A DNA stretch of 64,000 nucleotides from a virus (lineage: Duplodnaviria; Caudoviricetes): the IMG/VR virus record IMGVR_UViG_2772190778_000001; one strand, written 5' to 3'. This document shows, one piece after another, positions 1,462-56,760 of this stretch. Numbering within the stretch: the stretch's first letter is position 1; each line of letters begins with the position of its first letter. Position numbers and translations under genes: made by a program. Below the pieces are notes generated by a model, which did no database searches, was not told the DNA's origin, and was given only the letters and a program-made list of their open reading frames with translations.

Positions 1462-1609
1462 ATCGAATCGCCTCATAAAGTCGCCGCCCCTTTGGGGCAG
1501 GGAGCGGCCATGAGGTTATGTCTGGTCGGCGGGGTTTCTGTTTGGCGACTGTGCCCCGCGTCCCCGGGCGTATCTTCCTGAACGCTCGGGGCCTCCTGTG
1601 GTTTTGGGA

Positions 1610-1972
1610 TCAGAACCGCGCGGCGAGGCCTGCGACGCCCTCTGGCACCTCCGGCCAGAGCGGATCGTCGCCCGTCTCGATAGCGCGACGGCACTCGGCC
1701 TGCATCGCGGCCACCCATGCTTTCCAGCCCTGCGCCAATTCCAGATCGCCCTCGATCAGACCGGACGCGGCCAGAGCATCCGCGCGGGGGCTGCCGCCCA
1801 AGACGGCCGCCATAAACACGATCCCGGCTTGGGCGATGTTCATCTGCGTGGTCTCTGAGCCGACAAACAAGATACGCGACCGGCAGTCGGTCTTGATCAA
1901 GGCGGCACGAGCAAAGTTGTCTGCTAGGGTCTTGGCCTCGGCGGTGACGGCTTGGGCGAAATCAATCTGCAT
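1610..1972 (-). CDS. Putative tail fibre assembly/chaperone protein
   Basis: Position after tail fibre; coupled to upstream ORF. Confidence 0.55.
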   Translation of the reverse strand: MQIDFAQAVTAEAKTLADNFARAALIKTDCRSRILFVGSETTQMNIAQAGIVFMAAVLGGSPRADALAASGLIEGDLELAQGWKAWVAAMQAECRRAIETGDDPLWPEVPEGVAGLAARF

Positions 1973-2279
1973 CGGGGGTCTCCAACTCATAGGGCGGCAG
2001 GGTCACGGGGCCGTTGCCCGTAAGGGTGAGGGGCGCGGGAAAGAGCGTTTCTTGCGGCGCGTTGGCCCCGTGCGGCAGCACGAGCGTGAGGCGCAGCGTG
2101 CCGCCCACACGCTCGACCGGGCCTGCGAACCAATCGCTTGCGATGGCCTCGCGCGGCAGGGTCGCGCCCTCGGGCAGCGGCGTGAAATCGAGCACCTCGC
2201 CATTAAGCGTGAGCGCATCGCCGGTGCGGCTTAGCGTGAGGGGCGTGTCGCGGCGGGTGGGGGAAAGGGTGATCTGCAT
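1962..2279 (-). CDS. Small tail-associated protein (fibre assembly type)
   Basis: MQITLSPTRRD...LNGEVLDF N-terminus typical of genes following phage tail fibres; SD AAGGAG. Confidence 0.6.
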   Translation of the reverse strand: MQITLSPTRRDTPLTLSRTGDALTLNGEVLDFTPLPEGATLPREAIASDWFAGPVERVGGTLRLTLVLPHGANAPQETLFPAPLTLTGNGPVTLPPYELETPDAD

Positions 2280-2290
2280 GGGTGTCTCCT

Positions 2291-3403
2291 TTAGAACCAG
2301 CGGCCGGTGGCAATCAGATCAACAGTGCGATTGGCGGCAGCTTGCGTGGTGACGGCGGTCACGGCCCAAGGGCCGGATGTAGCATTTGGAGCACTGTGCG
2401 ACGCGGCTCCAAAGGCCGAAGCGGCGTTTGGCATCGCGACCAGTTTTGGCGCGCTGGCCGAAAGGAATTCCGCCGGAAACGTCCAGTTCTGCCCGCCGCT
2501 CCGAAACCCGCCCAAATAGGCGACGTTGATCGCGAGGTTGACCGTCAACGTATGCCAGCAAATCTGTGTACCATCTGCAAAGCGCACATAATCGCCATTG
2601 GCATTGCTGCCCCGCTCGATCACGGCCCCTGTAGGGACGCCGCCGGATTGGCTCACGGTGCCGACGAGGTTGGCCCTTGTCGTGATCTCAGTCCAGGCGG
2701 ACCAGACTGGGCCAACGGTATCCGTAAGGTGCCTCACAAAAATCTGGCTGCTGACCCCAAAGGCGATTTGCAAGAAGCCGCTGGCCCCCGAAGAGGCCAA
2801 GCGTGTCATGTGCAGGACGACGCCTGCTGAACTCGGTGCGCCGGTGGTCGTGCTAGCGTAGCGATGAAAGCCGGTTGTGGTCACGGTATCCAGAGATGCT
2901 GGGGACAAGATAGAAGAGGTTTCCCCAAGGCCGTGCGCCCGGTTCAGCAGCACCCGTCCCGCTGTGGCATCGGAAGGGGAGGATTGTTCAATCGTTGTCC
3001 GTGCCAAGAGCGCGCGTGCAGCTGGGGTCAGATCTGCCAGCGCCAACGTGCCCAAGCCGGTGAAGTAAGGCATTTTGTTCGCTGCCCCTTCCAAACCGGC
3101 AAGGCTCGTGAGGTTGCCAGAGCCGAGCGCTCCGACAATCTGGTTGAGCGCCACGAGCGACCGCTCGCCCGCGTCGATCAGGCGGATCGAGTAGTTTGCC
3201 GATGCCTGTCCACCGCCGGGCCAAGCGCGGGCAAGGGTGATCGAGGTGGCGCTGTTGACCGAGGCAATCTCAACCGTGAGGCCCGCTGCGCGGAAATCGT
3301 CACCGGGCAGGATGCCGCCCGCGATCCAGTTGGTGCCCACGCCTGTGACGGTCGTGCTGCCGTTGCTGACCGAGATGGTCCCCGTGGTATAGGTCGTCGT
3401 CAT
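2291..3403 (-). CDS. Side tail fibre / receptor-binding protein
   Basis: N-terminal YTTGTISVSNGSTTVTGVGT, MPYFTG repeat, C-terminal GSNANGDYVRFADGTQICW fibre-tip motif. Confidence 0.8.
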   Translation of the reverse strand: MTTTYTTGTISVSNGSTTVTGVGTNWIAGGILPGDDFRAAGLTVEIASVNSATSITLARAWPGGGQASANYSIRLIDAGERSLVALNQIVGALGSGNLTSLAGLEGAANKMPYFTGLGTLALADLTPAARALLARTTIEQSSPSDATAGRVLLNRAHGLGETSSILSPASLDTVTTTGFHRYASTTTGAPSSAGVVLHMTRLASSGASGFLQIAFGVSSQIFVRHLTDTVGPVWSAWTEITTRANLVGTVSQSGGVPTGAVIERGSNANGDYVRFADGTQICWHTLTVNLAINVAYLGGFRSGGQNWTFPAEFLSASAPKLVAMPNAASAFGAASHSAPNATSGPWAVTAVTTQAAANRTVDLIATGRWF

Positions 3404-3432
3404 CCCTCACTCCTTTGTTGATCGGGCCGCTG

Positions 3433-6400
3433 TCATGTGAATGCCGCCGTCGCTTTTTCTTCGGCGAACATCTGCGTTCCTTGCAAAACGTAGACGCCCT
3501 TCAGGCCACCGGGATGGGACCAGTAGCGCACCTGCAATGTGTAAGTCGTGGAGGACGCCCCCGGCGTCGTGCGGTTCTTGAACATCAAGCCATCGAGAAG
3601 CTGCCTGCGCCCTACCTCGATCCGCTGCCGATAGATGAGGGTATCCGCCATCTGGACCCCGTTCCTCAGGACCCGGTATTCGACGTCCGCCCCAGCATCA
3701 TCTGGGCTGAGGGACACCGCCTGAAACCGGACGTTCAGGATCATGTGACGCTCGCTGGGCAAGTTCCGATGCGCCGCAGTCAGCGTCAGAACGTCCTCAA
3801 AGTCGGTGGTGCTGGAGATCCCGAATGGGTCTTGCAGGGTCACGGCGCTGATCGCCCCAATCGCGTCGAGTGCAATCTTGTCGGTTAGGATTGACCCGCC
3901 AAGGATCAGATCCCCGTCCAAAACGAAATCGCCCGCCACCTGTACATTGCCGTCGAGACGCAGATAGTCGCCGGACCAGCGACCGGTGATTGTCGCCCCC
4001 TCCACGGTCCCATCACTGACGCTGACCGCCTCAAAGACGTTCTGCTCGTTCAGGCGCATGACAAAGCCCGCCGCAATCCCGTCTGCAGTGGCTTCGGCAA
4101 AGGCCGTGGCCTCGGCCAGTGCGGTCAGATCGCCGTAATTGGCCGAGACGGTCTGATTGACGGCCGCAACCGCCTCCGCCTCCGTTACCTTGGCGGCCTC
4201 GACCGTGGAGACCCGCGCGAGCAGACCGGTCTCGGGGGTATTGAGAGCGCTCTCGACGGTGGTGGTGCGCGAGGCGAGGGAGGTTAGAGCGCCATCGATC
4301 TCGGAGACTTCAGCGGTTAGCAGGTCCAGCGCGTTTGCCGTCGCTAGCCCCGGAATGGCCGCCTGCACCAAGGTGACTGCCGCTGAGACGATCTGGATTT
4401 GATCCTCGGTCAGGTCGATCCGGGAATTGAGGTCCTGGGCCGCCTGCGCCACGACCTCGCGCGTTGCAATCCCGTCCAGTATTGCGCGGGCGGCTCCTTC
4501 GACGGACTGTGCGCCTGTGAGCTTGAGCCGGGAGCGCACCGCGCGGGTGGAATTGGATTGCACCCGTTCGCCGTCCTCGAGCTGTTCGGCGCGCACAGTC
4601 AGTGTGTCCACGGCATCGCCGACCAGATTGAGGCCGGTTTCGAGGTCGGCAATCTCGCCGGTCAGCGCCGTGGTCGCGTCGGTCAGCGTGGCGACGCCTG
4701 CTTCGGTCTCGGTGACGCGGGCGTTGGTCTCGGTCAGCGCCTCCGCAGTGCCCGTGGCAAGCCCCTCCAAATCGGTCAGTTCGGAACCGAGCGCCGTGAT
4801 ATCCTCGGCCAGCGCCAGCCCCTGCGCGATGCGCGCCGCGCGCTCTGCGGTCAAATCGGCGCTTGAGGCTCCGGGGGCCGGGCGGCCAATCGCCAACCAG
4901 TCAATCTCGACGCTTGCGGGCAGGTCGAGGCGGACCCGGTCCACGGTGCCAGACCACGCCAGATCGACAGTGAGGAGCGCCACATCCTCCGCCCATTCCG
5001 GCTCGGCCACGTCGACGCGGCGCGCGGCGTCAAACGCCTGCCCCGAGGCGGCCCACCAGAATTGCGCGGCCCATGCTGGAACGCCACTGCGACGAAGCCG
5101 GGCGCGCAGCTGTCGATAGGCCTGCGTGGGGATCGCAAGACCAGCTGGCGAGATCGCGCCGCTGCCCGATGCGAGCGCAAGCCAACCGTCGGAGGTGACG
5201 CTTGGGGCGGTGGTGACGCCGGTCCACCCTTCGGCGTCTGCATCCCAATACCAGACTGCGGCGGCGTCGAACTGTGTGACCGTGCCCACGGAGAGGAGCG
5301 CAATCTGATTGGCCAGCGCGTCATCGCCGTCGATCCGCGCTTGGTCGACGGTCTGGGCAAGGGCCGCAATATCGCCGGTCGTGGTCTGGAGCGTCTGGAC
5401 CGACTGCGCGATCTGCACCTGCCCGTCGGCCAGCACGGTGAGCGCTGCCGAGGCTTCGGCCCGTGCGCCCTCGATCTCCGCCACCAGTGCGGTGCGCACC
5501 TCGTCGCGCGCCAGAAAGTCCCGCGCGGCGGCCTCGAGCGCCAGTTGTGCAGAGGATTTAATGCGGTCCCGCGCGGCGCGAACGCCGCCTGCGACGGAAA
5601 GCACGTCCCCGGCGCGGGCCTGCGCCTCTGTCAGCAGCGCGCCGTCGAGCCGCGTCACATGCGGCACCTCCGGCACATCGTCCACGCCAATGGGGGCGAT
5701 CACCTGCTCGATGCGGCCGAAAAGATCGGCGACGCTCGGCGGAATTCCATCCTCGCCAAGGTGTGCTTGGGTCAGGGCAAAGGCCGCGTCGAACTGGTCG
5801 CGCAGGGCATCGCTGAGGTCGGCCGCCGCCACCCGCACATCATCCGTGGTCACCCAAATCCAGGCCGACCAGATGCCCCGGCGATTGTCGGAGAGCGCCT
5901 TGGCGCGGACGCGCAGGTTGGTGAGTGGCGGCACAGGCTGGATGGTCGCAAGGCCCCGCTCGACATCGAGCACGGTGCCGCTCCAGACCTCTTCTTCGGT
6001 CTCGCGCTTTTGGCATTCGATGGCGATCCCCTTGATGGTATCGGCGATACCCGAGGCGTCCCAGAAGACGTCGACGGCGGCATGGGCGCGGGTGCCTTCT
6101 GCGTTCGTGACAGTGCGCGCGTCGGCATCAAAGAAGGGCAGGCCTGCGTCGTTGGGCACCGGGCGGGGCAGGATCGAGCTGCGGTCGGGGATCTCGAGCG
6201 CGGCGTCGATCTCGAAATCCTCCGGATCGCGTTCGCGCAGCGAGGCCACGACGGTCAGGCGGTGCAGATCGAGCACGATCTCGGTGACTTCAAAGAGCTT
6301 GTTCGCGTAGTCGTTCCACGCGCTGGTCACCGAGACGGTGTTGAGCGGGCGCAGTCCGGCATAATCGGGCGGCAGCGGCCAAGCGTGCCGCCGCCAGCGC

Positions 6401-7713
6401 CGGTGATCTTCGAGCGCGGATTTGGCCAGCTGTCCCCCCTGCGCGGCGTTGAAGACGGCGGGCAGGTCCATCTCGAAGTTACGCACAATGCCGTCTTCGG
6501 CTTGCCATGCGGGGTTGCTGATCTGCTCAAGCGGCACGCCGTTCCAGAGCGCGCCGGGCGAGACGTATTTGGCGGTGACGCGGTTGAAGATCTCGAGCAG
6601 TTCGGGAAACGGGTCTTTGGTGGCGGCATCCGTCACCAGAAGGTCGTCGTCGGTAATGCTGGCCACAGGGATATCGGGGGCGTCGACCTGAATGTAGAAG
6701 AAGCCGCCGAACTCGGCGATCTGCCCGTTGCAGGCGGCGAGCAGCTCGTCGATCACCTCGCCGGGCGTGTCCTCGGCGAATTTGATCTCATAGCCTGCCT
6801 CGTATTTCCGGCGGTCGCCAAGGTCGACGTCGCAGGCGTTCATGCCTGGCACCCAGTTCCAGCCGGGCAGGTCTTCGGCCTCGGCCTCGCCGCCCCAGAC
6901 CGAGCCGTCATAAAGGCCAATGCCGCGAAGGATGTTGTAGATCTGGACCACCGGGTTGCGCGTGGGCTCCCAGGTGGTGGGATCGTCCCAGCGATGCGGC
7001 CCCGTGCCCCCGGCGGTGCTGTCGCGGCGCAGGTCGTAATAGGGCACGCCGTTTTCCTCAAAGCGTTGCTCCGGCGCGCCATTGGGCCAGACCTTTGAAC
7101 TCACCTCCATTGTAAGGATGGCGTAGGGAATGCCCCGCCCGATATGGGCCTCCGTCCAGGGCGTCTCGGGGTCCTCGGCATAGTTCGCAACCAGCGTCGG
7201 ATCGGCGGCGGTCTGGGTGCCGTCATAGACCTTGATCCATGCAAAATCTCGGCCGAGGTCGCGCTTGGCGATGAGCGGGAAGCCGTAGTCGGGATGCGCC
7301 TCTTCACCCAGTTCGGAATAGACGCCGTCCACCATCACGCGGCTGAAGGCGGCACCGGGCAGGCCGCCCAACTCGATCACGGTCTGGTAATACTTGTTAT
7401 TGGGGCCGTGGCTGTTGTGATAGATCAGATGCCCCTTGGTGGCGTAAAAGCCCGTGATCGTCGTTTCGCTTTCCAACTCGCCGCGTGTCGTCGCCGTGAC
7501 TTGAAGACCGAAGGCCGTGTTGCGCCCACGCCGCGCGCGGCGTTGTTGCAGGATCGATAGGCCCACACCGGCAAAGAGGCGCAGGGCAAAAAGGGCCACA
7601 GCCTTGACCGTGATCCCGGCAAAGACAGCCGCCACGGCGGCGGCCACTGGCCCGGCCGAGGCAGGGGCGGCGGAGGCGAGTACGAGTGCCATGACCCATG
7701 CGAGCAGTCTCAT
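3433..7713 (-). CDS. Central tail fibre / host-specificity protein (gpJ-like), 1426 aa
   Basis: Size, position after NlpC-like gene, N-terminal hub similar to 45226-49164, long coiled-coil region. Confidence 0.85.
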   Translation of the reverse strand: MRLLAWVMALVLASAAPASAGPVAAAVAAVFAGITVKAVALFALRLFAGVGLSILQQRRARRGRNTAFGLQVTATTRGELESETTITGFYATKGHLIYHNSHGPNNKYYQTVIELGGLPGAAFSRVMVDGVYSELGEEAHPDYGFPLIAKRDLGRDFAWIKVYDGTQTAADPTLVANYAEDPETPWTEAHIGRGIPYAILTMEVSSKVWPNGAPEQRFEENGVPYYDLRRDSTAGGTGPHRWDDPTTWEPTRNPVVQIYNILRGIGLYDGSVWGGEAEAEDLPGWNWVPGMNACDVDLGDRRKYEAGYEIKFAEDTPGEVIDELLAACNGQIAEFGGFFYIQVDAPDIPVASITDDDLLVTDAATKDPFPELLEIFNRVTAKYVSPGALWNGVPLEQISNPAWQAEDGIVRNFEMDLPAVFNAAQGGQLAKSALEDHRRWRRHAWPLPPDYAGLRPLNTVSVTSAWNDYANKLFEVTEIVLDLHRLTVVASLRERDPEDFEIDAALEIPDRSSILPRPVPNDAGLPFFDADARTVTNAEGTRAHAAVDVFWDASGIADTIKGIAIECQKRETEEEVWSGTVLDVERGLATIQPVPPLTNLRVRAKALSDNRRGIWSAWIWVTTDDVRVAAADLSDALRDQFDAAFALTQAHLGEDGIPPSVADLFGRIEQVIAPIGVDDVPEVPHVTRLDGALLTEAQARAGDVLSVAGGVRAARDRIKSSAQLALEAAARDFLARDEVRTALVAEIEGARAEASAALTVLADGQVQIAQSVQTLQTTTGDIAALAQTVDQARIDGDDALANQIALLSVGTVTQFDAAAVWYWDADAEGWTGVTTAPSVTSDGWLALASGSGAISPAGLAIPTQAYRQLRARLRRSGVPAWAAQFWWAASGQAFDAARRVDVAEPEWAEDVALLTVDLAWSGTVDRVRLDLPASVEIDWLAIGRPAPGASSADLTAERAARIAQGLALAEDITALGSELTDLEGLATGTAEALTETNARVTETEAGVATLTDATTALTGEIADLETGLNLVGDAVDTLTVRAEQLEDGERVQSNSTRAVRSRLKLTGAQSVEGAARAILDGIATREVVAQAAQDLNSRIDLTEDQIQIVSAAVTLVQAAIPGLATANALDLLTAEVSEIDGALTSLASRTTTVESALNTPETGLLARVSTVEAAKVTEAEAVAAVNQTVSANYGDLTALAEATAFAEATADGIAAGFVMRLNEQNVFEAVSVSDGTVEGATITGRWSGDYLRLDGNVQVAGDFVLDGDLILGGSILTDKIALDAIGAISAVTLQDPFGISSTTDFEDVLTLTAAHRNLPSERHMILNVRFQAVSLSPDDAGADVEYRVLRNGVQMADTLIYRQRIEVGRRQLLDGLMFKNRTTPGASSTTYTLQVRYWSHPGGLKGVYVLQGTQMFAEEKATAAFT

Positions 7714-8111
7714 GGCCGGTAAATCCTGACGGCGCGGTTGAGTGGCACCGCGCCCAAGCCCCGCAGGGGACGCAGCACATGGATATGCCCCCCGCCGACG
7801 ATGCCCATGGCCTCGTCACCCGCCTCAATTAGCACCACGACGTCGCCCGCCTGTGCCTGCATCCAGCCCGCATCCGGCAACAGGATCGAGGCCAGAACCT
7901 CGGCAGGGGAGGCAAACCCGTCCGCCAAGAGAAGCGCGCGGCCTTCTTCTAAGGTGCGATATTGCCCGCGCCATTGCGCCGCCGGATCGGTGCCGGTCAG
8001 TTCTTCAATCCAGTCGGCTGCGAACATGGCGCAGTCGGAAAGGCTCGGGCGGAAAGGCTCTGCGCGCCGGGCATCGAGGAATTTCCGAAGGAGGCGTTCG
8101 CGTGTCATCAT
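7710..8111 (-). CDS. NlpC/P60-like tail-tip protein (gpK-like)
   Basis: SDCAMFAADW Cys motif with downstream His; synteny. Confidence 0.7.
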   Translation of the reverse strand: MMTRERLLRKFLDARRAEPFRPSLSDCAMFAADWIEELTGTDPAAQWRGQYRTLEEGRALLLADGFASPAEVLASILLPDAGWMQAQAGDVVVLIEAGDEAMGIVGGGHIHVLRPLRGLGAVPLNRAVRIYRP

Positions 8112-8764
8112 TTGCGGTCGCTCGGGTCGTTTTCGCGTATGAAGGGGGGCGGCTGCTCGGTCACGACCGTCTCTTGACCCCATGGGATCGGGCGGTCGGC
8201 AATGCTGGCGGCATGTTCGCGGAAGCGGTCGGACGGGTCGCGCAGCCGCTGTGCCGCATCGGATTTGAAGAGCGGCTGGCGGAAGGTGAGTGGGCGCGTA
8301 GCCGAGGAAATCACCAGCTCTGTGCGAGACTGATCACCGAGTTTGGCCAAGGTCTCGGGTGCCGTCTCGAGCCGTCCTTTGATGACGCGCTGCGGGGTCC
8401 CGAGTGGCGCGCCGGTGTAGATATCGAGCGGCTGCGACCAGACGCGCACCCGGGCCTGTGCGGCCTGATAAACCTGCAACGCCAGCTTGGCGGCATCGGT
8501 CATGGGCGGCAGGATCACGCGGTGGCGGCGCACCTCGAGGCCGATGCCTGCGCGGATTGGCGGCACCTCGATCACATTGCCCGCACCCAGAAAGAGATGG
8601 GTTTCGCCGTCGACGGTAAAGGTCTGGTGATCGTCCCCGGTCCAGAGGCCCATGGGCACGATCTCGCCCGTGACCCGGTCGCGCGGCTCGATCAGAACGA
8701 GGATATGGGCATCGGTGCCGCTGCGCTCGGCCAGCTGGTCCATTTGGGCAAGATCAAAGCTCAT
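8108..8764 (-). CDS. Tail-tip hub protein (gpL-like position)
   Basis: Synteny; distant similarity to P2 49541-50242. Confidence 0.6.
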   Translation of the reverse strand: MSFDLAQMDQLAERSGTDAHILVLIEPRDRVTGEIVPMGLWTGDDHQTFTVDGETHLFLGAGNVIEVPPIRAGIGLEVRRHRVILPPMTDAAKLALQVYQAAQARVRVWSQPLDIYTGAPLGTPQRVIKGRLETAPETLAKLGDQSRTELVISSATRPLTFRQPLFKSDAAQRLRDPSDRFREHAASIADRPIPWGQETVVTEQPPPFIRENDPSDRK

Positions 8765-9435
8765 ACTCCGCCCCCCAGCGTTTGCTGCCAGCTGAAGCTG
8801 CCGCCTTCGGTGCGCCGTGAGCGGCCCGGCCCCGGTTTGAAACTGAGCAGCTTTGCGCGCAGTTGCGGACGCTCAAGGATCACCGAGGCCCCGACCACCA
8901 CGCCGGGGCGGATAAAGGGCGAGACCTCGAACCGGGCTGTGGCCCCGGTGCTATCCGCCGTGACTGTGGCGTTCATGATCCTGTGGACGGCGTAGCGGAC
9001 GGGGCTCGCCAGATATTGAAAACCGATCTTCTGGCCCCGGCGCAGCGTGAAGTTCGGCGGCAGGCCCTGAAGGCTCAGTTCCCGATTGCCGGGGACAAGG
9101 CTCTTGATCGTGACCGGCTGTGCGGCCCAGTTGATGCCCCCCGGATAGGCAGGGTCTTGCGGCGCAAACTGGCGGCGGTCGTAGATCATGAAGGAAGCGC
9201 CCGGCTCGAGTAGGCTTTCGATCAGCGTATCTTGGGCGGCGATCACATCAGGCTCGGATTTGCCCAACACCACTTCGCCTTGCCAGAGCCGCGTGCCGCG
9301 CCGATGCACAATGACCTCGCCCCCGGCGGTGACCGAATTGGTGCTTTCGCCGCTGAGGAAAAACGTGGCCTCCTCGATGCCCAGAAGGTCAAAGAAGGCC
9401 GAGACCGGAAGGGGCCAATCCTGTACCGCCATCAT
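8761..9435 (-). CDS. Distal tail protein (Dit/gpM-like position)
   Basis: Directly after tape measure; distant similarity to P2 50244-50912. Confidence 0.6.
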   Translation of the reverse strand: MMAVQDWPLPVSAFFDLLGIEEATFFLSGESTNSVTAGGEVIVHRRGTRLWQGEVVLGKSEPDVIAAQDTLIESLLEPGASFMIYDRRQFAPQDPAYPGGINWAAQPVTIKSLVPGNRELSLQGLPPNFTLRRGQKIGFQYLASPVRYAVHRIMNATVTADSTGATARFEVSPFIRPGVVVGASVILERPQLRAKLLSFKPGPGRSRRTEGGSFSWQQTLGGGV

Positions 9436-12236
9436 CCTCTCCCTAATGGATCGCGCCGGATCGCCTCGACCCGGCCCGGCAGTTGTTGCGCCGAGAAATC
9501 GTCAACCACCTCGATGGCCACGTCGCGCGCGCGCTCTTCGGCGACGACGCGGAAAAGCTCCGACGGCTCGATGCGCAGGCGCGTGACGCTATTGCTCTGC
9601 AGGCCTGCGCCGCCCGCCGTCCCGACTGCACCCCCCGCCTGCGCGGGCAGCGGCAGGCCGCCCCCGGCAAAGCCCGGGATGATCGCGCCTGCGTTCATGG
9701 CTTCGAGCAGCGCGCGATTGCGGGCTGTGGCCTCGGCCGTCATGATGAACTCCCCGGCGCTGACCAGCGCGGGGATCTTGTCGCCCCGGCCTGTGCCTGC
9801 GCCCAAGAGGAGGCCGGGGCGGGTGACGAGAGGATCGCCGCCAGCGGCGAAGCCGGGCAACCCGCCGTTTGCGAAGGACAGAAGCGAGCCGCCGGAGAAG
9901 AGACCAAAGAGATCGCCAAGCGCGCCGCCGCTGCCGCCCCCGCCGAAGATCCCGCCCAGAAGGCCGCTGCCGCCAAAGAGCCCGCCCAAAGGACCTGACC
10001 CGAGGATGAGCGCCTCCTTGGCCGCGCGCACGATCATGTCGCCGATGCCTTTCCAGACGTCCCGCAGGCTTTCGGCCTCGAGGAGCACGTCATCTACGGC
10101 GCGGCTGAATTCCTCCTTGCGCTCCAAGGCGACGCGCTCGTTTTCATGGGCCTCGACAAGGGCCTCTATCTCTTCGCGCTGTTTCGGTGTTGCGGCGGTG
10201 AGGCTCTCGCGTAGGCGGATCATCTCGCGTTGCACCGGGTCGCTTTCACGCAAGGCCTCGATCTCGCGCCGCTTGCTCTCGATCAGCCGGTCGAGCGCCT
10301 GTTGTTCGCGCAAGGTGGCATTGGTCGACGCGCCCCGCGCGCCGCTGGTGGACCGAGTGGGCCGGGCCAGTTCGTTGAGCCGGGCGGTCTCGCGCGCCAG
10401 TTCGACCACAGCGTCCCGGCGCGCGTTGAGGGCGTCGACCGTTGGCAGATCACCGCTGGCCTCACCTCTGATGACGGCGGTTTCCCGGTCGAACCGCGCG
10501 CCCGCCAGTGCCCCCGCACGGCCCACCGGATCGTCGCGGAACTCCGCCCGGATACGGGCGTTCTCCAGTCCGACTTCGCCTTGGGACTGCAAGTCGAACA
10601 TTGCGTCGACGGCTCCGCGCACTTCGGCTGAGAGCCGTGCTGCCTCGTCGGCCGCCGCGCGGATACTGCCCGACATGTCGCTCGTGGCGATCTCGAATGC
10701 AGCTTGAGCCGCCTCGCGCATGGCGTCTTTCGTCTCCACGCTCGCGTCTGAGGCATCGGCCTCCGCAAGTGCGGCGTCGAGGGCGAACTGAGCGCGCAGG
10801 CGTGTCACGGCCGCGCTGTCCGCGCCATGCTGTGCGATGGCCAATGCAATCGCATTCTGCTCGGTCATCGTTGAGAGCATGGCCTGCGCCGCCGCCTCGG
10901 CCTTGAGCTGCTCGCCGGTGGCTTTGGTCACCAAGTCGAGGAAGGTCAGCATTTCCTCGATCTGGCGGTTCCGCGCGGGGTCTTGGCTTTGAAGCTGGGC
11001 GACTTCGGCCAGACGTAGACGCATCTGAGCCAACGTATCGAGCCGGGCCTTTTCAGCCTCCGAAACCTCGCCCGAGGCCTTTGCGGCGGCGCTGTAGCTT
11101 TCGATCAGCGCGTCGACGGCGGCAGCTTGTTCTTCAACGGTGCCTTTGGCGGCCTCCTCTAGGGCGGCAAAATCGTTGAGAACGTCCTGGACAAGTTGAC
11201 GGCTCCCGGCGCGCATCCGCCCAAAGAGGCCGCTGAGGTCAAGCTCGGACGCCAAGGTGGAAAGTGCCTGCCCTTCGGCCACGTCGAGCCCGCCGTCGAC
11301 AGATTGCGGCAGGAGCTCGCGGTTGCGGTTGACGCGCCCAAAGTCGACGCCGGTCTCGCCCAGAAAGCTTCCAATATTGTCGCGCGTTTCACGGGCGACG
11401 GCACGCTTTTCAGCCTCGACGATCCGGTCAAGCAGATCTTGGGCGCGCTCGACGAAGCCTTCACCAAAGCGCTCGGCCAGTTCGAGCCGGGTGCCGGAGG
11501 CCTCGGCGATCTTGTCCTTCAGGCTGTCGATCCGGGTCTCCAGCGCCTCGACCGTATCTGCGAATGTCTCGCCCTCTTCAGAGGCGGACATGAACCAATT
11601 GACCACGGTCGCCGTCGCCGCCAATGCGGCGATGGTGATCAGGTTGATCGGGCTCAGCATCGACAGGACCGCGCCCCCCAAGGCCCGGAACGCGCCCGCC
11701 GCTCCGAGCGGACCGATGACTTGGGTGATCTGGGTGCCCTGTTGAATGGCCAGCGTCAGCGGGTTTTGCCCCGCCGCCAGCATGACGAACACGTCATTGC
11801 CTTGTGCGACGAGGTTGCCCATCGAGCCTGCGGCGAGGCGATTGGCACCTGCCAATTGCTGGGCCGCCATCGTGCTGCGGGCAAAATCCGCGTTCAGGCT
11901 GTCTAGGGCGGCGTCATATTGCCGCGAGGTAAGCGCGCCGACCCTTTGAGCTGCATTTAGTTGTTCGAGCGCCGTTTCGTACCGTTTACTCGCCGCGAAC
12001 AGTGGGTCGAACTGCGCGCGCAGCCGATCCTGTTCTTGGGCCAGCACATTCATGCTCTCTTCGGCGGATTTTGTCGTGCGCGCCACGATGTCCATGCCGC
12101 GCCCGATACCGACACCTTCAACTCCAAGCGCCCGAAGATCCCTTGCCGCGCCGAGCGACGCCACGGCCAAGCTCCGCATCTGCGCCTTGGCCTGTTCGGT
12201 ATCCATCAGGATTTCGCCCTGGACACGCAACGTCAT
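9432..12236 (-). CDS. Tail tape measure protein, 934 aa
   Basis: Ala-rich helical protein, GQNPLTLAIQQGTQI motif, Gly-rich C-terminus, follows chaperones. Confidence 0.9.
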   Translation of the reverse strand: MTLRVQGEILMDTEQAKAQMRSLAVASLGAARDLRALGVEGVGIGRGMDIVARTTKSAEESMNVLAQEQDRLRAQFDPLFAASKRYETALEQLNAAQRVGALTSRQYDAALDSLNADFARSTMAAQQLAGANRLAAGSMGNLVAQGNDVFVMLAAGQNPLTLAIQQGTQITQVIGPLGAAGAFRALGGAVLSMLSPINLITIAALAATATVVNWFMSASEEGETFADTVEALETRIDSLKDKIAEASGTRLELAERFGEGFVERAQDLLDRIVEAEKRAVARETRDNIGSFLGETGVDFGRVNRNRELLPQSVDGGLDVAEGQALSTLASELDLSGLFGRMRAGSRQLVQDVLNDFAALEEAAKGTVEEQAAAVDALIESYSAAAKASGEVSEAEKARLDTLAQMRLRLAEVAQLQSQDPARNRQIEEMLTFLDLVTKATGEQLKAEAAAQAMLSTMTEQNAIALAIAQHGADSAAVTRLRAQFALDAALAEADASDASVETKDAMREAAQAAFEIATSDMSGSIRAAADEAARLSAEVRGAVDAMFDLQSQGEVGLENARIRAEFRDDPVGRAGALAGARFDRETAVIRGEASGDLPTVDALNARRDAVVELARETARLNELARPTRSTSGARGASTNATLREQQALDRLIESKRREIEALRESDPVQREMIRLRESLTAATPKQREEIEALVEAHENERVALERKEEFSRAVDDVLLEAESLRDVWKGIGDMIVRAAKEALILGSGPLGGLFGGSGLLGGIFGGGGSGGALGDLFGLFSGGSLLSFANGGLPGFAAGGDPLVTRPGLLLGAGTGRGDKIPALVSAGEFIMTAEATARNRALLEAMNAGAIIPGFAGGGLPLPAQAGGAVGTAGGAGLQSNSVTRLRIEPSELFRVVAEERARDVAIEVVDDFSAQQLPGRVEAIRRDPLGRG

Positions 12237-14952: not shown

Positions 14953-15378
14953 TCAGAACCCCTTGAGGCTGTCGCGGCTGAAGGTGCCCGCTGGAGCGCT
15001 GATCTGCGGAAGCTGGGGATTGCCTCGGCCGGTGTCCTCGGGCGTCTCGTCGCCAAGCGAGGCCTCGCCCTTGCGCACTTGGCGCAAAAAGGCGACGGCG
15101 GCGTCATGGCCGTCTTTCGCCCCGTCAAAGGTGGCCGCTCGCGCGCCCAGAAGCCGATACCAGGCAATCGCGGCGGCATGCACGGTGAGTGCACGCGGCG
15201 GGTTGGCCGCAGTGTATAGCCCCGCGACATAGCTCTCGACCAGGGCCACGGCATCGTCGACGGCTACTTGTAAAACGGCATTGTCGACGACGCCCGGCGT
15301 GCCATCGCGGGCGGTGATCTCGGCCAAAAAGCCCTCGCCGTAGCGGTCGATCATATCTTGTGGTGTGAGGTAAGGCAT
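14953..15378 (-). CDS. Head-tail connector (Mu gp36 / DUF1320-like)
   Basis: MPYLTPQDMIDRYG N-terminus; 141 aa like P2 copy. Confidence 0.8.
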   Translation of the reverse strand: MPYLTPQDMIDRYGEGFLAEITARDGTPGVVDNAVLQVAVDDAVALVESYVAGLYTAANPPRALTVHAAAIAWYRLLGARAATFDGAKDGHDAAVAFLRQVRKGEASLGDETPEDTGRGNPQLPQISAPAGTFSRDSLKGF

Positions 15379-15605
15379 CAGCGTGTCAGCCCCTTGACGG
15401 CCCACATGACAGCCTCTTCGATCTTGGTGCGCGCAAGCGCGAACTCGCGCCCCTGCTCGCATGAAATCTCGGTAAGAAACGCATCCCCGATATCCTTGAC
15501 GGCTGAGACCCGGCACGCCTCGGCGTCGTTCAAGGTGCGGGGGATATGGCGCACGGGGCTGTTCGCGACCCGGGCGTCATCAGTGCTTTTGAACGTCTCT
15601 GACAT
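15378..15605 (-). CDS. Acb2/Tad1-like small protein (candidate signalling-nucleotide sponge)
   Basis: RTLNDAE...VKDIG and GREFALARTKIEEAVMW resemble remembered Acb2/Tad1 hairpin motifs; SD GGAGG; TGATG coupling; absent in P2. Confidence 0.65.
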   Translation of the reverse strand: MSETFKSTDDARVANSPVRHIPRTLNDAEACRVSAVKDIGDAFLTEISCEQGREFALARTKIEEAVMWAVKGLTR

Positions 15606-15785
15606 GGGATGCGCCTCCGGCTCAGGGTGTTTCGGTGCCGGTCTCTCCCGGCTGTCACGTCCATTTCTCAGACGTTGCAGGCTCCAACTCGCGTGGGCCG
15701 CGCCTACTCGGATCGCCTCCGGCGGGGTCTGGTTGTCGCCCGATGTGCCCGTGAGGTTCGCGATTGATCCTTTCGCTCTGGAATT

Positions 15786-16142
15786 TCAGGAAGCCGCGCC
15801 TGCGGCGGCCTGCATCTCGGCCCAGACAGTGTCCCGCACGGCGGCGGTGATCTGGTCGGCAAGGCCGGGGAGCGCGTCTTGCAGCGCCTTGACCTTGGGC
15901 TTGCCGCCTTTGTCGAAGGCGTCGCCCGGCAGGGCGTTGATGGCATTGGTCAAGGCCACGCGCAGCGCGTCGTCGAGGACAGGCGGCGGCGCGGTGTCGG
16001 CCCCGCCGTCGGTCTCTTCGATTGCGCCCAAGGCCAGAAGGCGCGCGATCTGCGCCGCGCTGCCGATCTCTTGCGCGGGGTGGGTCGATCCCGCCTCAAG
16101 CCGCGAGGCCGCGATCACAGTGCGTTTGATGAGATAGCTCAT
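15786..16142 (-). CDS. Head-associated protein after capsid (gp35-like position)
   Basis: ATGA coupling; conserved in P2 56761-57117. Confidence 0.65.
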   Translation of the reverse strand: MSYLIKRTVIAASRLEAGSTHPAQEIGSAAQIARLLALGAIEETDGGADTAPPPVLDDALRVALTNAINALPGDAFDKGGKPKVKALQDALPGLADQITAAVRDTVWAEMQAAAGAAS

Positions 16143-17098
16143 GCTGCGTCCTCGATCAGATAGCCGGTGGCGGGGGCGGCGATGACCTCGCGGAGCTGCT
16201 CGCCCACGCGCAGGGTGGTGGCGCCTTTGAGGCCGACCTTGGGGTCGAAGAAACGCCCCGAGACGCGGCCGTCGAATTGCGCGGTCCAGCCCCATGCGGG
16301 GGCGGTGCCATCGGGTCCGGCCTGTGTGTTGCGGTGGATGAGGGCGATATTGCCGCCCCAGACCTTCTCGAAGGCGGCCGTCTGACCTTTGCGCGCCGAG
16401 TTGATGTAGCTGTCGCCCACGAGGATCTCGGAAAGCTCGAAGAGCTCCGCCACCGCCTCGCGGCTGGCGCGGCCCTTGTCGCCCGAGGTCCGGTTGATGG
16501 CCTTCAGGATATCGGGATGGGTCGAGAGCGCCGTCCAGGCCTTGCGCCCCATCGCGGCCACATTGGGGCGCATGATGAAGGTCGCGTCGAGAGCGGCGGA
16601 GATCACGCCGATAGGGTCAGAGGTGGGATCGGTAAACTGGCCCGCGCCCGACAGCACCACCCGCTTGTCGGCGTCATAATTGGCCGCATCTTGCACCATG
16701 GCGGCCACGCGCTTTTCGCGGTCGAGCTGGATCAGATGGGTGAGACCCTCGACGGCACGGGCCTCGGGGTCAAAGGCCGAGTTGCCAGCGGCGCGGAGTG
16801 CCCGCGCGGCATCGATGTCGCGCTGCGGCACCACGTCGTCAAGACCGTAGTCCTTGACGGAGGAGGTGCGTTCTTCGCCGGTGAACTCGACCTGTTGGAC
16901 CAGACCTTTGCGGCCCACTTCCGTGTCCGGCACGGTGAACATCTGTTCGGGCGGATAAAAGGTCCATTTGAAATCCATCCCCATGACCGGCACGCGGGGC
17001 ATCACCTGGTCGGCAATGAAGAAGATATCGGGGTTGCGGTAGTTGACGGCGATGGCGGTCAGGACCGGATCGACGACAAAGGGGGTGGGGGTGCTCAT
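16139..17098 (-). CDS. Major capsid protein
   Basis: MSTPTPFVVDPVLTAIAVNYRN N-terminus, 319 aa, follows protease and cement gene. Confidence 0.9.
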   Translation of the reverse strand: MSTPTPFVVDPVLTAIAVNYRNPDIFFIADQVMPRVPVMGMDFKWTFYPPEQMFTVPDTEVGRKGLVQQVEFTGEERTSSVKDYGLDDVVPQRDIDAARALRAAGNSAFDPEARAVEGLTHLIQLDREKRVAAMVQDAANYDADKRVVLSGAGQFTDPTSDPIGVISAALDATFIMRPNVAAMGRKAWTALSTHPDILKAINRTSGDKGRASREAVAELFELSEILVGDSYINSARKGQTAAFEKVWGGNIALIHRNTQAGPDGTAPAWGWTAQFDGRVSGRFFDPKVGLKGATTLRVGEQLREVIAAPATGYLIEDAA

Positions 17099-21955: not shown

Positions 21956-23597
21956 CCGGGAACCCTCCAAAATCCAGAACTCCGCCACCTCGGGCAAAGC
22001 CCATGCGCCGCCCGCCCAAAGGGCTGATGAAGTCCTCGGCCGTCAGAGCGGTGCGCCGCCCGGTCGATTGAAACTCCATGGGCACCACGTCCTGATTGCT
22101 CGCATGCCAGGCGAGCGCGCCTGCGATGGCGCTGTCGCCATGCCGGTCGAGACCGTCCGAGCCTTTGAAGCGGAAGTTCTCGGGCACGCGAATGATGCCG
22201 TTTGTGTATTGCAGCGCCTGATGGTCGCGCAGCACGTCCTCATGGGCGGGCAGAACGATGGTGCGATCCGAGAAGGCTTCGATATAGGGCGGCATCTCCA
22301 GCTCGTACCATGCCCTCGTGAATGAGACCTCGACGATCCGCGCGCCGTAGCGTTGGGCCGCGACCTCGGCGAGATAGGCCCCGTTGCCGGTGCGGTCCAT
22401 CGCGCCCTTTTGGAAATTGGGCAGGCGGTCGAGCAGCCAGAAGAGCACGTCGCGCTGCTGGTCAAAGGGGATATTGCGCAGCTCGACAATGAGCTTGGTG
22501 CGCCGGGTGAGATCGACGCCCTGCTCGAGAATGATGATGTCGGTGGCATCGCCCGAGCGCGCAAAGTCCTCGCCCATGAAATGCGGGCGCGTTCGGTCGA
22601 GGGTTTTAAGCACCGGTTCAAGGTGGGTTTTACACCAGGCTTCAGCGGCGGCCTTGCGGACGGGTTCGTCGGCATTCTTGAAGCTGTCGGGCTGCGTCCA
22701 GCGATGGAACGGGATGCCCTGCGCCATGCAGGCCTCGATTTGGACGCGGGTCAGGGCCGCGCCTTCCATCTCGGCGGGTTCCGCATCAAGCTCTTGGCGC
22801 ATCGCGGCCTCGCGCGCGCCGTAAGCCCGGCGCACAGTGGCCTCCCACGCGGCCTCGGCCTCTGGCGTCCAGGTCTTGCCCTGCATCATGCAGACGCGTT
22901 TATAAAGCCCGTTGGCGACCGCGTCGCTGAATGTGTAGCGATGCACCGCAAAGCCGTTCTTGCCCGCGCGCGCCTCGCGGATCAGCTCGTTGAAGGCATT
23001 GAGATAACCGTTATGGGTCGAGATGATCCGGACCTTGCCGCCCCAGATCAGCATTGCGTTCACGGCGTCGATCACCTCGCGCACGTCCTTGTGGAACGCG
23101 GCCTCGTCGATCACCACGGTGCCCTGAAGGCCCCGGATATTGGCGGGGTTGGAGCTGAGCGCCTCGACGCGGAACCCGGAGGCAAAGCGCACGCGGTAGG
23201 CCGAGATGAACTTGGTGGTGCCGTCGGGCTGTTGATCCTCGAAGAGAAACTCCTCGATAGGGTGCGCCGCCCCCGCGATCACCCGCGCGAAATGCGCCAC
23301 ATAGCCAATGGCCTCGCGGCCCTTATCCTTGGTGTCGCCGATGTAAAAGCAGTTCTGCCCGCCCGCACCGCGCGCGGCGGCGGCAATGAGGGCGCAGCCC
23401 AGCATCTCGGCAAAGGTGATGCCGGTGCGGCGACCCTTCTCGCAGACCTTGAGATCGCTCTCGTCGGCCAGCCAAGAGCGTTGATGTTCCATCAGGATGC
23501 CGTCTGCCAGCGGATCGAGGCTCTCGGGGATCTCCGAGCCGCGCGGCAATTCCTCGGGGAGCGCGTCCGGGTCGCGGGTGAGGACGGGGGCGGTCAC
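21948..23597 (-). CDS. Large terminase (Mu gp28-like)
   Basis: EKGRRTGIT Walker A, VVIDEAAFH Walker B, GEDFAR nuclease, HGDSAIA. Confidence 0.92.
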   Translation of the reverse strand: MTAPVLTRDPDALPEELPRGSEIPESLDPLADGILMEHQRSWLADESDLKVCEKGRRTGITFAEMLGCALIAAAARGAGGQNCFYIGDTKDKGREAIGYVAHFARVIAGAAHPIEEFLFEDQQPDGTTKFISAYRVRFASGFRVEALSSNPANIRGLQGTVVIDEAAFHKDVREVIDAVNAMLIWGGKVRIISTHNGYLNAFNELIREARAGKNGFAVHRYTFSDAVANGLYKRVCMMQGKTWTPEAEAAWEATVRRAYGAREAAMRQELDAEPAEMEGAALTRVQIEACMAQGIPFHRWTQPDSFKNADEPVRKAAAEAWCKTHLEPVLKTLDRTRPHFMGEDFARSGDATDIIILEQGVDLTRRTKLIVELRNIPFDQQRDVLFWLLDRLPNFQKGAMDRTGNGAYLAEVAAQRYGARIVEVSFTRAWYELEMPPYIEAFSDRTIVLPAHEDVLRDHQALQYTNGIIRVPENFRFKGSDGLDRHGDSAIAGALAWHASNQDVVPMEFQSTGRRTALTAEDFISPLGGRRMGFARGGGVLDFGGFPDG

Positions 23598-40699: not shown

Positions 40700-40834
40700 C
40701 GAGAACCATTAAAAAAATCGAAGTCAACCGTGACCGCGTCTAAAGAAATTCCTTGAGGTATCCTAATTCGCCAACGTTCGACGGCCGAACCTCATCTTTT
40801 CAACGCCCCTTTAACACCCCGCTAAACACCTCCC

Positions 40835-40873
40835 TCACTCCACATACCGAAACCCCTGCACGGCGCGGGAATG
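40835..40873 (-). pseudogene. Remnant of the last 12 codons of the ABC-GNAT gene
   Basis: HSRAVQGFRYVE* versus HFRAVQGFRYVE*; 37-bp perfect match 40832-40868 = 42323-42359. Confidence 0.8.
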
Positions 40874-45224: not shown

Positions 45225-45225
45225 G

Positions 45226-50242: not shown

Positions 50243-50243
50243 C

Positions 50244-56250: not shown

Positions 56251-56676
56251 TCAGAACCCCTTGAGGCTGTCGCGGCTGAAGGTGGCCTGCGGCGCGCTGA
56301 TCTGCGGCAGCTGTGGATTGCCGGGGCCGGTATCGGCGGGCGTCTCGTCGCCGAGCGAGGCCTCGCCCCGGCGCACCTCGCGCAAGAAGCTGAGGGCGGC
56401 GTCATAGCCTTCCTTGGCCCCGTCATAGGCGGCGGCCCGCGCGCCCAAGAGGCGATGCCAGGCAATCGCGGCGGCGTGCATCGTGAGCGCGCGCGGGGGG
56501 GTGTCTGCGTTGTAAAGCCCCGCGACATAGCTTTCGGTGACCGACACGGCATCGTCGATGGCCACTTGCAGAACGCCCATATCCACGACGCCGGGCGCTG
56601 CGCCCTGTGCCGTGATCTCAGCCAAAAAGCCCTCGCCGTAGCGGTCGATCATATCCTGTGCGCTGAGATAGGGCAT
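56251..56676 (-). CDS. Head-tail connector (gp36/DUF1320-like)
   Basis: Homolog of 14953-15378. Confidence 0.8.
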   Translation of the reverse strand: MPYLSAQDMIDRYGEGFLAEITAQGAAPGVVDMGVLQVAIDDAVSVTESYVAGLYNADTPPRALTMHAAAIAWHRLLGARAAAYDGAKEGYDAALSFLREVRRGEASLGDETPADTGPGNPQLPQISAPQATFSRDSLKGF

Positions 56677-56760
56677 GTCCGCCTCCGGCTTGGGTGTAGG
56701 GGTGCCGGTCTCTCCCGGCTGTCACGCCTGATCCTTGGCGGCGTCCCCTTGGGGGTATTC

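What the first reader, a model, noticed from the sequence alone, without database searches (positions are those of the whole stretch)
15378..15605. Acb2/Tad1-like gene slotted into the head operon of P1 only
Seen: the 75-aa ORF sits between the shared AGCCGGAGGC ribosome-binding segment and the gp36 start, coupled by TGATG; in P2 the same segment leads straight into gp36. Its RTLNDAE..VKDIG and GREFALARTKIEEAVMW segments match my memory of Acb2 and the Tad1 hairpin. Established: Acb2 and Tad1 are sponges for CBASS/Thoeris signals. The Tyr I recall before the RxL motif is Pro here. Inference: a late-expressed anti-defence moron, possibly with altered ligand specificity.
Basis: partly seen in the sequence, partly recalled or inferred. 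Interest (0 to 1): 0.75.

Follow-up and report, generated by a model that had tools for sequence, protein, structure and literature searches.

The report
Acb2-family sponge gene in Mu-like prophage
One of two sister Mu-like prophages carries a small gene of the known Acb2 family of phage "sponge" proteins, which soak up bacterial immune signals; the copy is ordinary except that the tyrosine that normally stacks on the signal molecule is a proline.

Summary
A 75-aa ORF (15378-15605, minus strand) lies between a shared GGAGG ribosome-binding segment and the Mu gp36-like gene, with stop and start overlapping in TGATG. The sister prophage P2 runs from the same segment straight into gp36. This is the only copy in the 4.38-Mb genome.

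The ORF hits Pfam PF24729 (Acb2/Tad1 hairpin) at 51.5 bits against a cut-off of 27. A profile of its homologs reaches solved Acb2 structures (E 8e-5) and the biochemically validated JBD67 Acb2 (hhalign 92%). JBD67 acb2 occupies the same slot, directly upstream of a gp36-like gene. It is an Acb2-type protein, not Tad1: it is too short, and only one helix matches Tad1.

The dinucleotide-stacking Tyr (PaMx33 Y11) is Pro here, against Tyr in 113 of 120 homologs. A family-conserved Lys30 is Ala. The phosphate-binding Lys (K26 equivalent) and the trinucleotide-pocket Arg and Thr (R67/T74 equivalents) are kept. Five distinct alleles share Pro and Ala, and dN/dS is about 0.25, so the variant is maintained rather than decaying.

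The host carries a type II CBASS and a type III Thoeris-like locus. I file it as a new member of a known kind. The scan flagged similar genes in other genomes.

The parts
15378..15605 (-). acb2-like gene, 75 aa (Acb2/Tad1 hairpin domain; P22 and A30 variant)
   Evidence: ORF. PF24729 at 51.5 bits, E 1.2e-13. Profile hits to Acb2 structures. hhalign to JBD67 Acb2. Only copy in the genome.
15613..15622 (-). Shared ribosome-binding segment AGCCGGAGGC; the GGAGG lies 8 nt upstream of the ATG
   Evidence: The same segment precedes gp36 directly in P2 (56681-56690).
15376..15380 (-). TGATG stop/start overlap coupling the acb2-like ORF to gp36
   Evidence: Read directly from the sequence. The gp36 start is fixed by comparison with P2.
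14953..15378 (-). Mu gp36-like head-tail gene, 141 aa
   Evidence: PF07030, E 8e-21.
15623..15785 (-). Intergenic region with a highly conserved non-coding element. The invariant 28-nt hairpin piece CGTGACAGCCGGGAGAGACCGGCACC is shared with P2. The 5' ~92 nt are absent from P2.
   Evidence: No Rfam match.
15786..16142 (-). Conserved 118-aa gene after the major capsid gene; no family match
   Evidence: Present in all related loci.
16139..17098 (-). Major capsid protein, 319 aa
   Evidence: Weak PF03864 hit, below its cut-off, plus position in the Mu-like head module.
56677..56760 (-). Empty site in sister prophage P2: an 84-nt intergenic region leads from the 118-aa gene straight to gp36
56251..56676 (-). 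P2 gp36-like gene
   Evidence: PF07030, E 7.6e-19.

Best explanation
The ORF is a real, expressed-looking gene for a short-form member of the Acb2 family of phage signal-sequestering 'sponge' proteins. It sits in the accessory slot between the capsid genes and the gp36-like head-tail gene of a Mu-like prophage, the same slot that holds the validated acb2 of Pseudomonas phage JBD67. It would be transcribed with the late head operon and translated from the GGAGG site that serves gp36 in prophages lacking it; gp36 is then translated by TGATG coupling (inferred). By homology the product is a helical hairpin that assembles into a hexamer and binds nucleotide immune signals without degrading them (inferred, not tested). 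In this allele group the vertex pocket is remodelled. The base-stacking Tyr (PaMx33 Y11 / T4 Y8) is Pro22 and the subfamily-conserved Lys30 is Ala, while the phosphate-binding Lys37 (K26 equivalent) and Lys71 remain. The residues that form the separate cyclic-trinucleotide pocket in PaMx33 Acb2 (R67, A70, I71, T74) are kept as R53, A56, L57 and T60. My most likely reading is a functional sponge whose canonical cGAMP-type dinucleotide binding is weakened or changed. Trinucleotide (cA3/cAAG-type) binding, or binding of another ligand such as a cyclic ADPR isomer at the vertex pocket, may remain.
For: Family membership: PF24729 at 51.5 bits against a cut-off of 27. The 51-sequence profile hits PaMx33 Acb2 8h2j at E 8e-5 over profile positions 21-74, Acb2_43 9ptq at 1e-4 and T4 Vs.4 at 3e-3. 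hhalign to JBD67 Acb2 gives 91.7% probability, E 7.6e-7. The AF2 model (pLDDT 86) is a two-helix hairpin, and its best structural neighbours are Vs.4 (Z 6.3, rmsd 2.1 over 58 residues) and PaMx33 Acb2 (Z 5.9).

Slot: JBD67 acb2 lies immediately upstream of a PF07030 gene. Seven related loci have the same arrangement.

Dispensable accessory: the gene is absent from P2, whose flanking head genes are 89-93% identical.

Residue mapping: read against PMC10312549 (Y11A and K26A abolish dinucleotide binding; R67A and T74A affect cA3 binding; the two pockets are independent).

Maintenance: five distinct alleles, including Roseovarius mucosus DSM 17069 and Tara metagenomes, all carry P22 and A30. dN/dS is 0.25 overall, with 0 nonsynonymous against 4 synonymous changes in residues 37-75. 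The ratio for the N-terminal half (0.44) falls within the range of Tyr-type pairs (0.21-0.84).

Precedent for a Tyr-less active Acb2: Acb2_43 binds 3'cADPR through an N-terminal strand plus K19 and K55, and does not inhibit CBASS (10.1101/2025.08.24.671296).

Potential targets in the host: a type II CBASS (DncV-like CD-NTase, Cap2 E1/E2, 2TM Cap15 effector) and a ThsB + ThcA type III Thoeris-like pair.
Against: No binding, oligomer state or anti-defence phenotype was or could be tested here. Tyr-to-Ala at the equivalent position abolishes dinucleotide binding in PaMx33 and T4 Acb2, so the vertex pocket may simply be dead. Having the Arg and Thr is not sufficient for cA3 binding: T4 Acb2 D61R still fails to bind (PMC10312549). 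Fold matches are no better than those to unrelated helical hairpins. The dN/dS estimates rest on 19 differences. Pairwise BLAST to JBD67 Acb2 finds nothing, so homology is visible only at profile level. I could not find this subfamily in the held (truncated) part of the published sponge tables.
Confidence: 0.6

Rival explanations
1. It is an inactivated sponge. The Tyr22Pro and Lys30Ala changes killed ligand binding, and the ORF persists only because it sits in the late operon and its translation delivers ribosomes to gp36.
For: Two positions conserved at 94% and 93% in the subfamily are both replaced. Y11A abolishes binding in PaMx33 Acb2 (PMC10312549). P2 does without the gene entirely. Other degenerate-looking variants exist (P0026, P0106, P0119).
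Against: Selection for coupling alone would not preserve the amino-acid sequence. Yet residues 37-75 show 0 nonsynonymous against 4 synonymous changes, overall dN/dS is 0.25, and the N-terminal half is no more relaxed than in Tyr-type pairs. Five alleles keep both substitutions and an intact frame. Each substitution needed two base changes and has been retained since.
Confidence: 0.2
2. It is a fully canonical anti-CBASS Acb2 that still binds cGAMP-type dinucleotides, with neighbouring residues compensating for the missing Tyr (for example His20, which is Tyr20 in the Tara allele).
For: K37, L25 and K71 are retained. The host carries a DncV-like CBASS that such a sponge would counter. P0002 has Tyr at position 20.
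Against: The stacking Tyr is described as highly conserved and essential in PaMx33 and T4 Acb2 (PMC10312549; PMC12657218). Proline cannot stack on a base.
Confidence: 0.12
3. It is not an anti-defence protein at all, but a small head-completion or head-tail joining accessory that happens to share a helical hairpin.
For: It sits among structural genes and is coupled to gp36. Helical hairpins are a common fold.
Against: The sequence-level family match is well above threshold. P2 has near-identical head genes and lacks it. Homologs also occur outside the head module, for example next to GemA in L012. The same-slot JBD67 gene is a proven sponge (PMC10312549).
Confidence: 0.05

Closest known systems
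Acb2 of Pseudomonas phages JBD67 and PaMx33 (PDB 8H2J; anti-CBASS sponge, hexamer)
   Same: It carries the same Pfam domain and aligns at profile level across both helices. The K26, R67, A70, I71 and T74 equivalents are present. In JBD67 the gene occupies the same slot directly upstream of a Mu gp36-like gene in a Mu-like phage.
   Different: Y11 is replaced by Pro. It is much shorter: the hairpin loop lacks the ~24-40 residue insertion. It has a 20-residue conserved N-terminal extension (S-x-D-D-x-R..N..R-H). Pairwise BLAST shows no similarity.
Acb2_43 (PDB 9PTQ; Acb2 homolog that binds 3'cADPR and inhibits type I Thoeris, not CBASS)
   Same: It is a similar size (76 against 75 aa) and a short hairpin form. 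The profile matches at E 1e-4. The Lys pair that contacts the ligand phosphates (K19 and K55) aligns with K37 and K71 here. It has no stacking Tyr at the PaMx33 Y11 position; by ungapped extension that position is T4.
   Different: The N-terminal segment that forms the ligand-contacting beta-strand in Acb2_43 (T4-H5-L6-V7) has no evident sequence counterpart here. The AF2 monomer predicts no N-terminal strand.
T4 Vs.4 / Acb2 (PDB 7UQ2)
   Same: It is the best structural neighbour (Z 6.3) and a profile hit at E 3e-3 on the second helix.
   Different: T4 uses Y8 and F82 for stacking. This protein has neither equivalent.
Tad1 (Thoeris anti-defence 1; PDB 7UAV, 8KBB)
   Same: They share the C-terminal helix motif RE..A.T..EEA.MW.
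   Different: Tad1 is 123-138 aa, and the match is confined to its C-terminal helix (chain positions ~87-122), leaving the whole N-terminal part unmatched. From established knowledge, that N-terminal domain forms the gcADPR pocket. Only residues 52-72 of this protein align (E 8e-3).

Membership tests
Acb2 family (Pfam PF24729-containing short phage sponges) | Acb2/Tad1 hairpin domain scoring above Pfam's gathering cut-off | tested here: met
   51.5 bits against 27, E 1.2e-13, covering residues 23-75.
Acb2 family (Pfam PF24729-containing short phage sponges) | Homology to experimentally characterised Acb2 proteins across both helices | tested here: met
   The family profile hits 8h2j at E 8e-5 (profile 21-74 against chain 10-87) and 9ptq at 1e-4. 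hhalign to JBD67 Acb2 gives 91.7%.
Acb2 family (Pfam PF24729-containing short phage sponges) | Small single-domain protein folding as two long antiparallel helices | tested here: met
   The AF2 model has pLDDT 86 with helices 27-46 and 53-74. It superposes on Vs.4 and Acb2 at rmsd 1.7-2.1 over 57-58 residues, but the Z of about 6 is not discriminating for hairpins.
Acb2 family (Pfam PF24729-containing short phage sponges) | Homo-hexamer with ligand pockets at protomer interfaces | not testable with these tools
   Only monomer prediction is available.
Canonical cGAMP-binding Acb2 (PaMx33/T4 type) | Base-stacking Tyr (PaMx33 Y11, T4 Y8) | tested here: not met
   Pro22 aligns with Y11 of PaMx33 and of JBD67. 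Tyr occupies this position in 113 of 120 homologs. This residue defines the dinucleotide-binding activity, not the family: Acb2_43 binds its ligand by a different mechanism, without the Y11-type stacking.
Canonical cGAMP-binding Acb2 (PaMx33/T4 type) | Phosphate-binding Lys (PaMx33 K26) | tested here: met
   K37 is invariant in 120 of 120 homologs and aligns with RVK(E/A)LG.
Trinucleotide-binding Acb2 (PaMx33/JBD67 type) | R67 and T74 (plus A70 and I71) lining the cA3 pocket | tested here: met
   R53, T60, A56 and L57 align. R53 and T60 are invariant. Their presence is necessary but not sufficient (PMC10312549).
Acb2 family (function) | Sequesters, without cleaving, a nucleotide immune signal and rescues phage from CBASS or Thoeris | not testable with these tools
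   This needs biochemistry and plaque assays.
Tad1 | A protein of roughly 123-138 aa whose N-terminal domain forms the gcADPR pocket, followed by the hairpin | tested here: not met
   This protein is 75 aa. Only residues 52-72 align to Tad1 chains, at chain positions about 87-122.

The most novel reading that the evidence does not exclude
The Pro22/Ala30 allele group is a naturally re-tuned Acb2, for which I see two candidate explanations. One is that it shed cyclic-dinucleotide binding to escape sponge-sensing guard systems of the Panoptes type; in that system an Acb2 Tyr mutant or loss of acb2 escapes defence, and P1 and P2 would then show the two escape routes side by side. In that case it may keep trinucleotide binding. 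The other is that its vertex pocket now captures a different signal, such as the still uncharacterised signal of the type III Thoeris that this host carries. In that case the protein could serve as a handle to identify that molecule.
Probability: 0.15. Interest if true: 0.6.

Novelty: new member of a known kind. Interest (0 to 1): 0.3.

Why it matters
Acb2 sponges are an established and very large family: more than 4,000 non-redundant homologs are reported, and UniRef already labels this protein by its domain. A further member in the expected slot is routine annotation.

What gives it modest value is a natural experiment inside one chromosome. Two about 90% identical Mu-like prophages differ by presence or absence of the sponge gene. 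The copy that is present lacks the residue that published mutagenesis shows is required for dinucleotide binding, yet it appears to be under purifying selection. The lysogen itself carries a CBASS and a type III Thoeris-like locus.

That combination makes a cheap test system for three questions. How do sponge pockets diversify? Can the two Acb2 pockets be uncoupled in nature? Do sponge-guard systems drive loss of binding?

Tried and rejected
- **Direct PDB search.** phmmer with the single protein gave only a marginal hit (9ptq, E 1.4). The family profile was needed.
- **Pairwise BLAST to JBD67 Acb2.** No alignment. hhalign was needed.
- **Foldseek against PDB.** No match at E <= 0.001, although Acb2 and Vs.4 chains took ranks 1-8. 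The VIA second look gave Z of about 6, on a par with unrelated hairpins such as YscE and EscE. Structure is therefore supportive only.
- **Other family libraries.** PHROGs gave only unnamed families. NCBIfam and PADLOC have no model that matches the ORF.
- **Published sponge tables.** I looked for this subfamily in the supplement of the 84-sponge study. None was found in the held part of the file, which is truncated, so this is inconclusive.
- **Relaxed selection in the Pro clade.** The dN/dS of the N-terminal half is 0.44, within the spread of Tyr-type pairs. Relaxation is not supported, but the numbers are small.
- **Promoter and terminator scan.** There is no sigma-70-like site, and the only terminator-like hit lies inside gp36. 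The scan uses an E. coli-type consensus, so it is weak evidence against an autonomous moron.
- **Host defence genes.** SMODS (PF18144) and mCpol (PF18182) were not found in the host. The CD-NTase was found instead through the Cap15 neighbour and PF21654. No Panoptes synthase was detected.
- **Rfam.** Nothing matched the conserved intergenic element.

Full report
**Observation**

The window holds two related Mu-like prophages with late genes on the minus strand: P1 at about 1-41 kb and P2 from about 42.3 kb onwards. Their structural modules are 85-93% identical.

P1 has the following gene order, going leftward in window coordinates:
- portal (PF06074) and MuF (PF04233);
- a 361-aa and a 136-aa gene;
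- the major capsid gene (16139-17098);
- a conserved 118-aa gene (15786-16142);
- a 180-nt spacer;
- the 75-aa ORF 15378-15605;
- Mu gp36 (PF07030, 14953-15378);
- gpG-like Phage_tail_S, tail terminator and tail tube.

The ORF's ATG follows AGCCGGAGGCGCATCCC, and its TGA overlaps the gp36 ATG as TGATG. In P2 the same AGCCGGAGGCG is followed by GAC-ATG of gp36. The self-comparison breaks exactly at 15378-15780 against 56676-56754. A whole-genome scan with PF24729 finds only this copy in 4.38 Mb.

**Is it a gene, and of what family?**

The ORF matches Pfam PF24729 (Acb2/Tad1 hairpin domain) at 51.5 bits, cut-off 27, E 1.2e-13, over residues 23-75. A search of the large protein collection returns 148 homologs of 64-89 aa. 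Almost all carry the same Pfam domain, and several are named 'Acb2/Tad1 domain-containing protein' by UniRef.

A profile of 51 of these homologs gives the following hits in PDB:
- PaMx33 Acb2 (8h2j), E 8e-5, over profile positions 21-74;
- Acb2 homolog 43 (9ptq), E 1e-4;
- T4 Vs.4, E 3e-3;
- Tad1 chains, E 8e-3, only on the second helix.

hhalign of the profile against the JBD67 Acb2 protein gives 91.7% probability, E 7.6e-7. The AF2 model (pLDDT 86) is a two-helix hairpin with a less confident 20-residue N-terminal arm. Acb2 and Vs.4 chains occupy Foldseek ranks 1-8, and VIA-align gives Z 5.9-6.3 at rmsd 1.7-2.1 over 57-58 residues. Unrelated hairpins score similarly, so the fold evidence is only corroborative.

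At 75 aa, with no counterpart to the part of Tad1 that lies upstream of the matched helix, the protein is Acb2-type, not Tad1-type.

**Genomic slot**

In Pseudomonas phage JBD67, a Mu-like Beetrevirus, the biochemically characterised acb2 was deleted at 23005-23232 in PMC10312549. It lies after the major head gene and one small ORF, and immediately upstream of a PF07030 gp36-like gene.

Seven further loci carrying homologs show the same order: capsid, about 118-aa gene, spacer, acb2-like, gp36. These are P0002, P0003, P0008, P0009, P0011 and P0016, plus the more distant myovirus-type P0031. Homologs also occur elsewhere. One sits near GemA in another Mu-like element, and one lies between the adaptor and stopper genes in Sinorhizobium phage Aussie.

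The gene is therefore a mobile accessory with a preferred, already known slot. In this lineage P2 is the unusual one. In a sample of 150 genomes of the same taxonomic family, 8 had a match, which is the sporadic pattern expected of prophage cargo. No promoter-like site was found near the ORF, and no terminator-like site lies between it and gp36; the only terminator-like hit is inside gp36. 'Embedded late-operon accessory gene' describes it better than 'moron'.

**Ligand-site residues**

The profile and hhalign alignments give the following mapping, checked against the mutagenesis primers quoted in PMC10312549.

| PaMx33 residue | Role in PaMx33 | Residue here | Subfamily conservation |
|---|---|---|---|
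| Y11 | pi-stacking on the dinucleotide base | Pro22 | Tyr in 113/120 |
| L14 | hydrophobic contact to adenine | Leu25 | Leu in 119/120 |
| K26 | salt bridge to phosphate | Lys37 | Lys in 120/120 |
| R67 | cyclic-trinucleotide pocket | Arg53 | Arg in 120/120 |
| A70 | cyclic-trinucleotide pocket | Ala56 | Ala in 68/120 |
| I71 | cyclic-trinucleotide pocket | Leu57 | Leu in 84/120 |
| T74 | cyclic-trinucleotide pocket | Thr60 | Thr in 120/120 |

A second subfamily-conserved residue, Lys30 (111/120), is Ala here. It lies seven residues before Lys37 in the first helix, so it should be on the same face; that placement is an inference.

Published work shows three relevant points. Y11A and K26A abolish dinucleotide binding but not cA3 binding. 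R67A and T74A do the reverse. Possessing the Arg and Thr is not sufficient, because T4 D61R still fails to bind cA3 (PMC10312549). Separately, Acb2_43 has no stacking Tyr. It binds 3'cADPR through an N-terminal strand plus K19 and K55, which align with K37 and K71 here, and it inhibits Thoeris but not CBASS (10.1101/2025.08.24.671296). Absence of the Tyr therefore argues against canonical cGAMP binding but not against sponge function.

**Is the variant maintained?**

Pro22 and Ala30 are shared by five distinct alleles:
- the window's own sequence;
- three cluster members, including Roseovarius mucosus DSM 17069;
- a Tara Oceans allele at 89% identity.

The nearest Tyr/Lys-type relatives are 72-80% identical. 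Each substitution needed two base changes: TAY to CCC, and AAG to GCG.

Between the window allele and the Tara allele, dS is 0.21 and dN/dS is 0.25. Residues 37-75 show no nonsynonymous changes against four synonymous ones. The N-terminal half has dN/dS 0.44, within the 0.21-0.84 range seen among Tyr-type pairs. The counts are small, but there is no sign of decay.

**Host context**

The same genome carries two signalling-based defence loci.
- **Type II CBASS.** A DncV-like CD-NTase (PF21654 and PF21713; PADLOC cyclase E 1e-157), Cap2 (E1-E2, E 1e-202) and a divergently oriented 2TM Cap15-type effector (PF18153). It lies about 390 kb from the window, beside a lower-GC stretch with an IS110 transposase.
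- **Type III Thoeris-like pair on contig 2.** A ThsB-type TIR protein (PADLOC E 8e-137) sits next to a SLOG protein that matches NCBIfam 'Thoeris type III ThcA' at 213 bits, cut-off 110. The signal of type III Thoeris was described as uncharacterised in December 2025 (10.64898/2025.12.03.692087).

No mCpol (Panoptes synthase) was detected. These loci show that signalling defences of the kind sponges counter circulate in this host. They do not show which signal, if any, this protein binds.

**A frame for the polymorphism**

The Panoptes study showed that phages escape that sponge-sensing system in two ways: by losing acb2, or by mutating its dinucleotide-binding residues (T4 Y8A, F82C) (PMC12657218). 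P2 has no gene, and P1 has Pro in place of the Tyr. These correspond to the two outcomes. This is a hypothesis only, and no Panoptes synthase is present in this genome.

**Verdict**

This is a new member of a well-known family in its known slot, so interest is modest. The maintained Tyr-to-Pro and Lys-to-Ala allele group, the within-genome presence/absence pair and the host's own CBASS and Thoeris loci make it a convenient test case rather than a discovery.

The scan had already flagged look-alike genes in other genomes. They include the same one-of-two-prophages pattern and a Cys-for-Tyr variant. I also saw a Cys at the Tyr position in homolog P0013.

Noticed in passing
window 15623-15772 (- strand); also L003:3833-3976, L009, L015, L016, L018: A non-coding element of about 144 nt upstream of the acb2-like gene is 90-98% identical among six prophage loci whose adjacent coding DNA has dS of 0.2-1.4. 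It is far more conserved than the genes around it. RNAalifold draws five hairpins (-48 kcal/mol), but there is only one compensatory pair. Rfam has no match. Its 3' 28 nt (hairpin GCCGG-GAGAGA-CCGGC) are invariant, including in P2 and L017. Its 5' ~92 nt are missing from P2 and from L017, which does carry acb2, so this indel is independent of the gene.
   Followed up: partly
G000:C1:4060388-4063991 (locus L014 2389-5992): The host has a type II CBASS: a DncV-like CD-NTase (407 aa), Cap2 E1/E2 (550 aa) and a divergent 2TM Cap15-type effector (216 aa). It lies next to a lower-GC stretch (46-53%) with unassigned 430-, 501- (AAA_16 + HHH) and 277-aa genes and an IS110 transposase. This may be a defence island.
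   Followed up: partly
G000:C2 about 72100-74040 (locus L008 392-2328, - strand): A ThsB-type TIR protein (453 aa) overlaps a 223-aa SLOG protein that matches NCBIfam NF058525, Thoeris type III ThcA. The signal of that system is reported as uncharacterised.
   Followed up: partly
window 40810-40873 versus 42303-42364: A 64-bp direct match (92%) lies just left of the P2 left end and about 1.5 kb upstream of it. It may be a prophage-end or attachment repeat between the two tandem Mu-like prophages.
   Followed up: no
window 1565-9508 versus 43887-51000, and 11150-12176 versus 52663-53491: The tail-fibre/host-range part and a segment of the tape-measure region show no blastn match between P1 and P2, although the flanking modules are 85-93% identical. 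The prophages are mosaic.
   Followed up: no
homologs P0013, P0105, P0119, P0106, P0026: Other members of the subfamily also lack the stacking Tyr (Cys, His, Thr, Pro), and some have truncated or degenerate N-termini. Change at this pocket position therefore recurs.
   Followed up: partly
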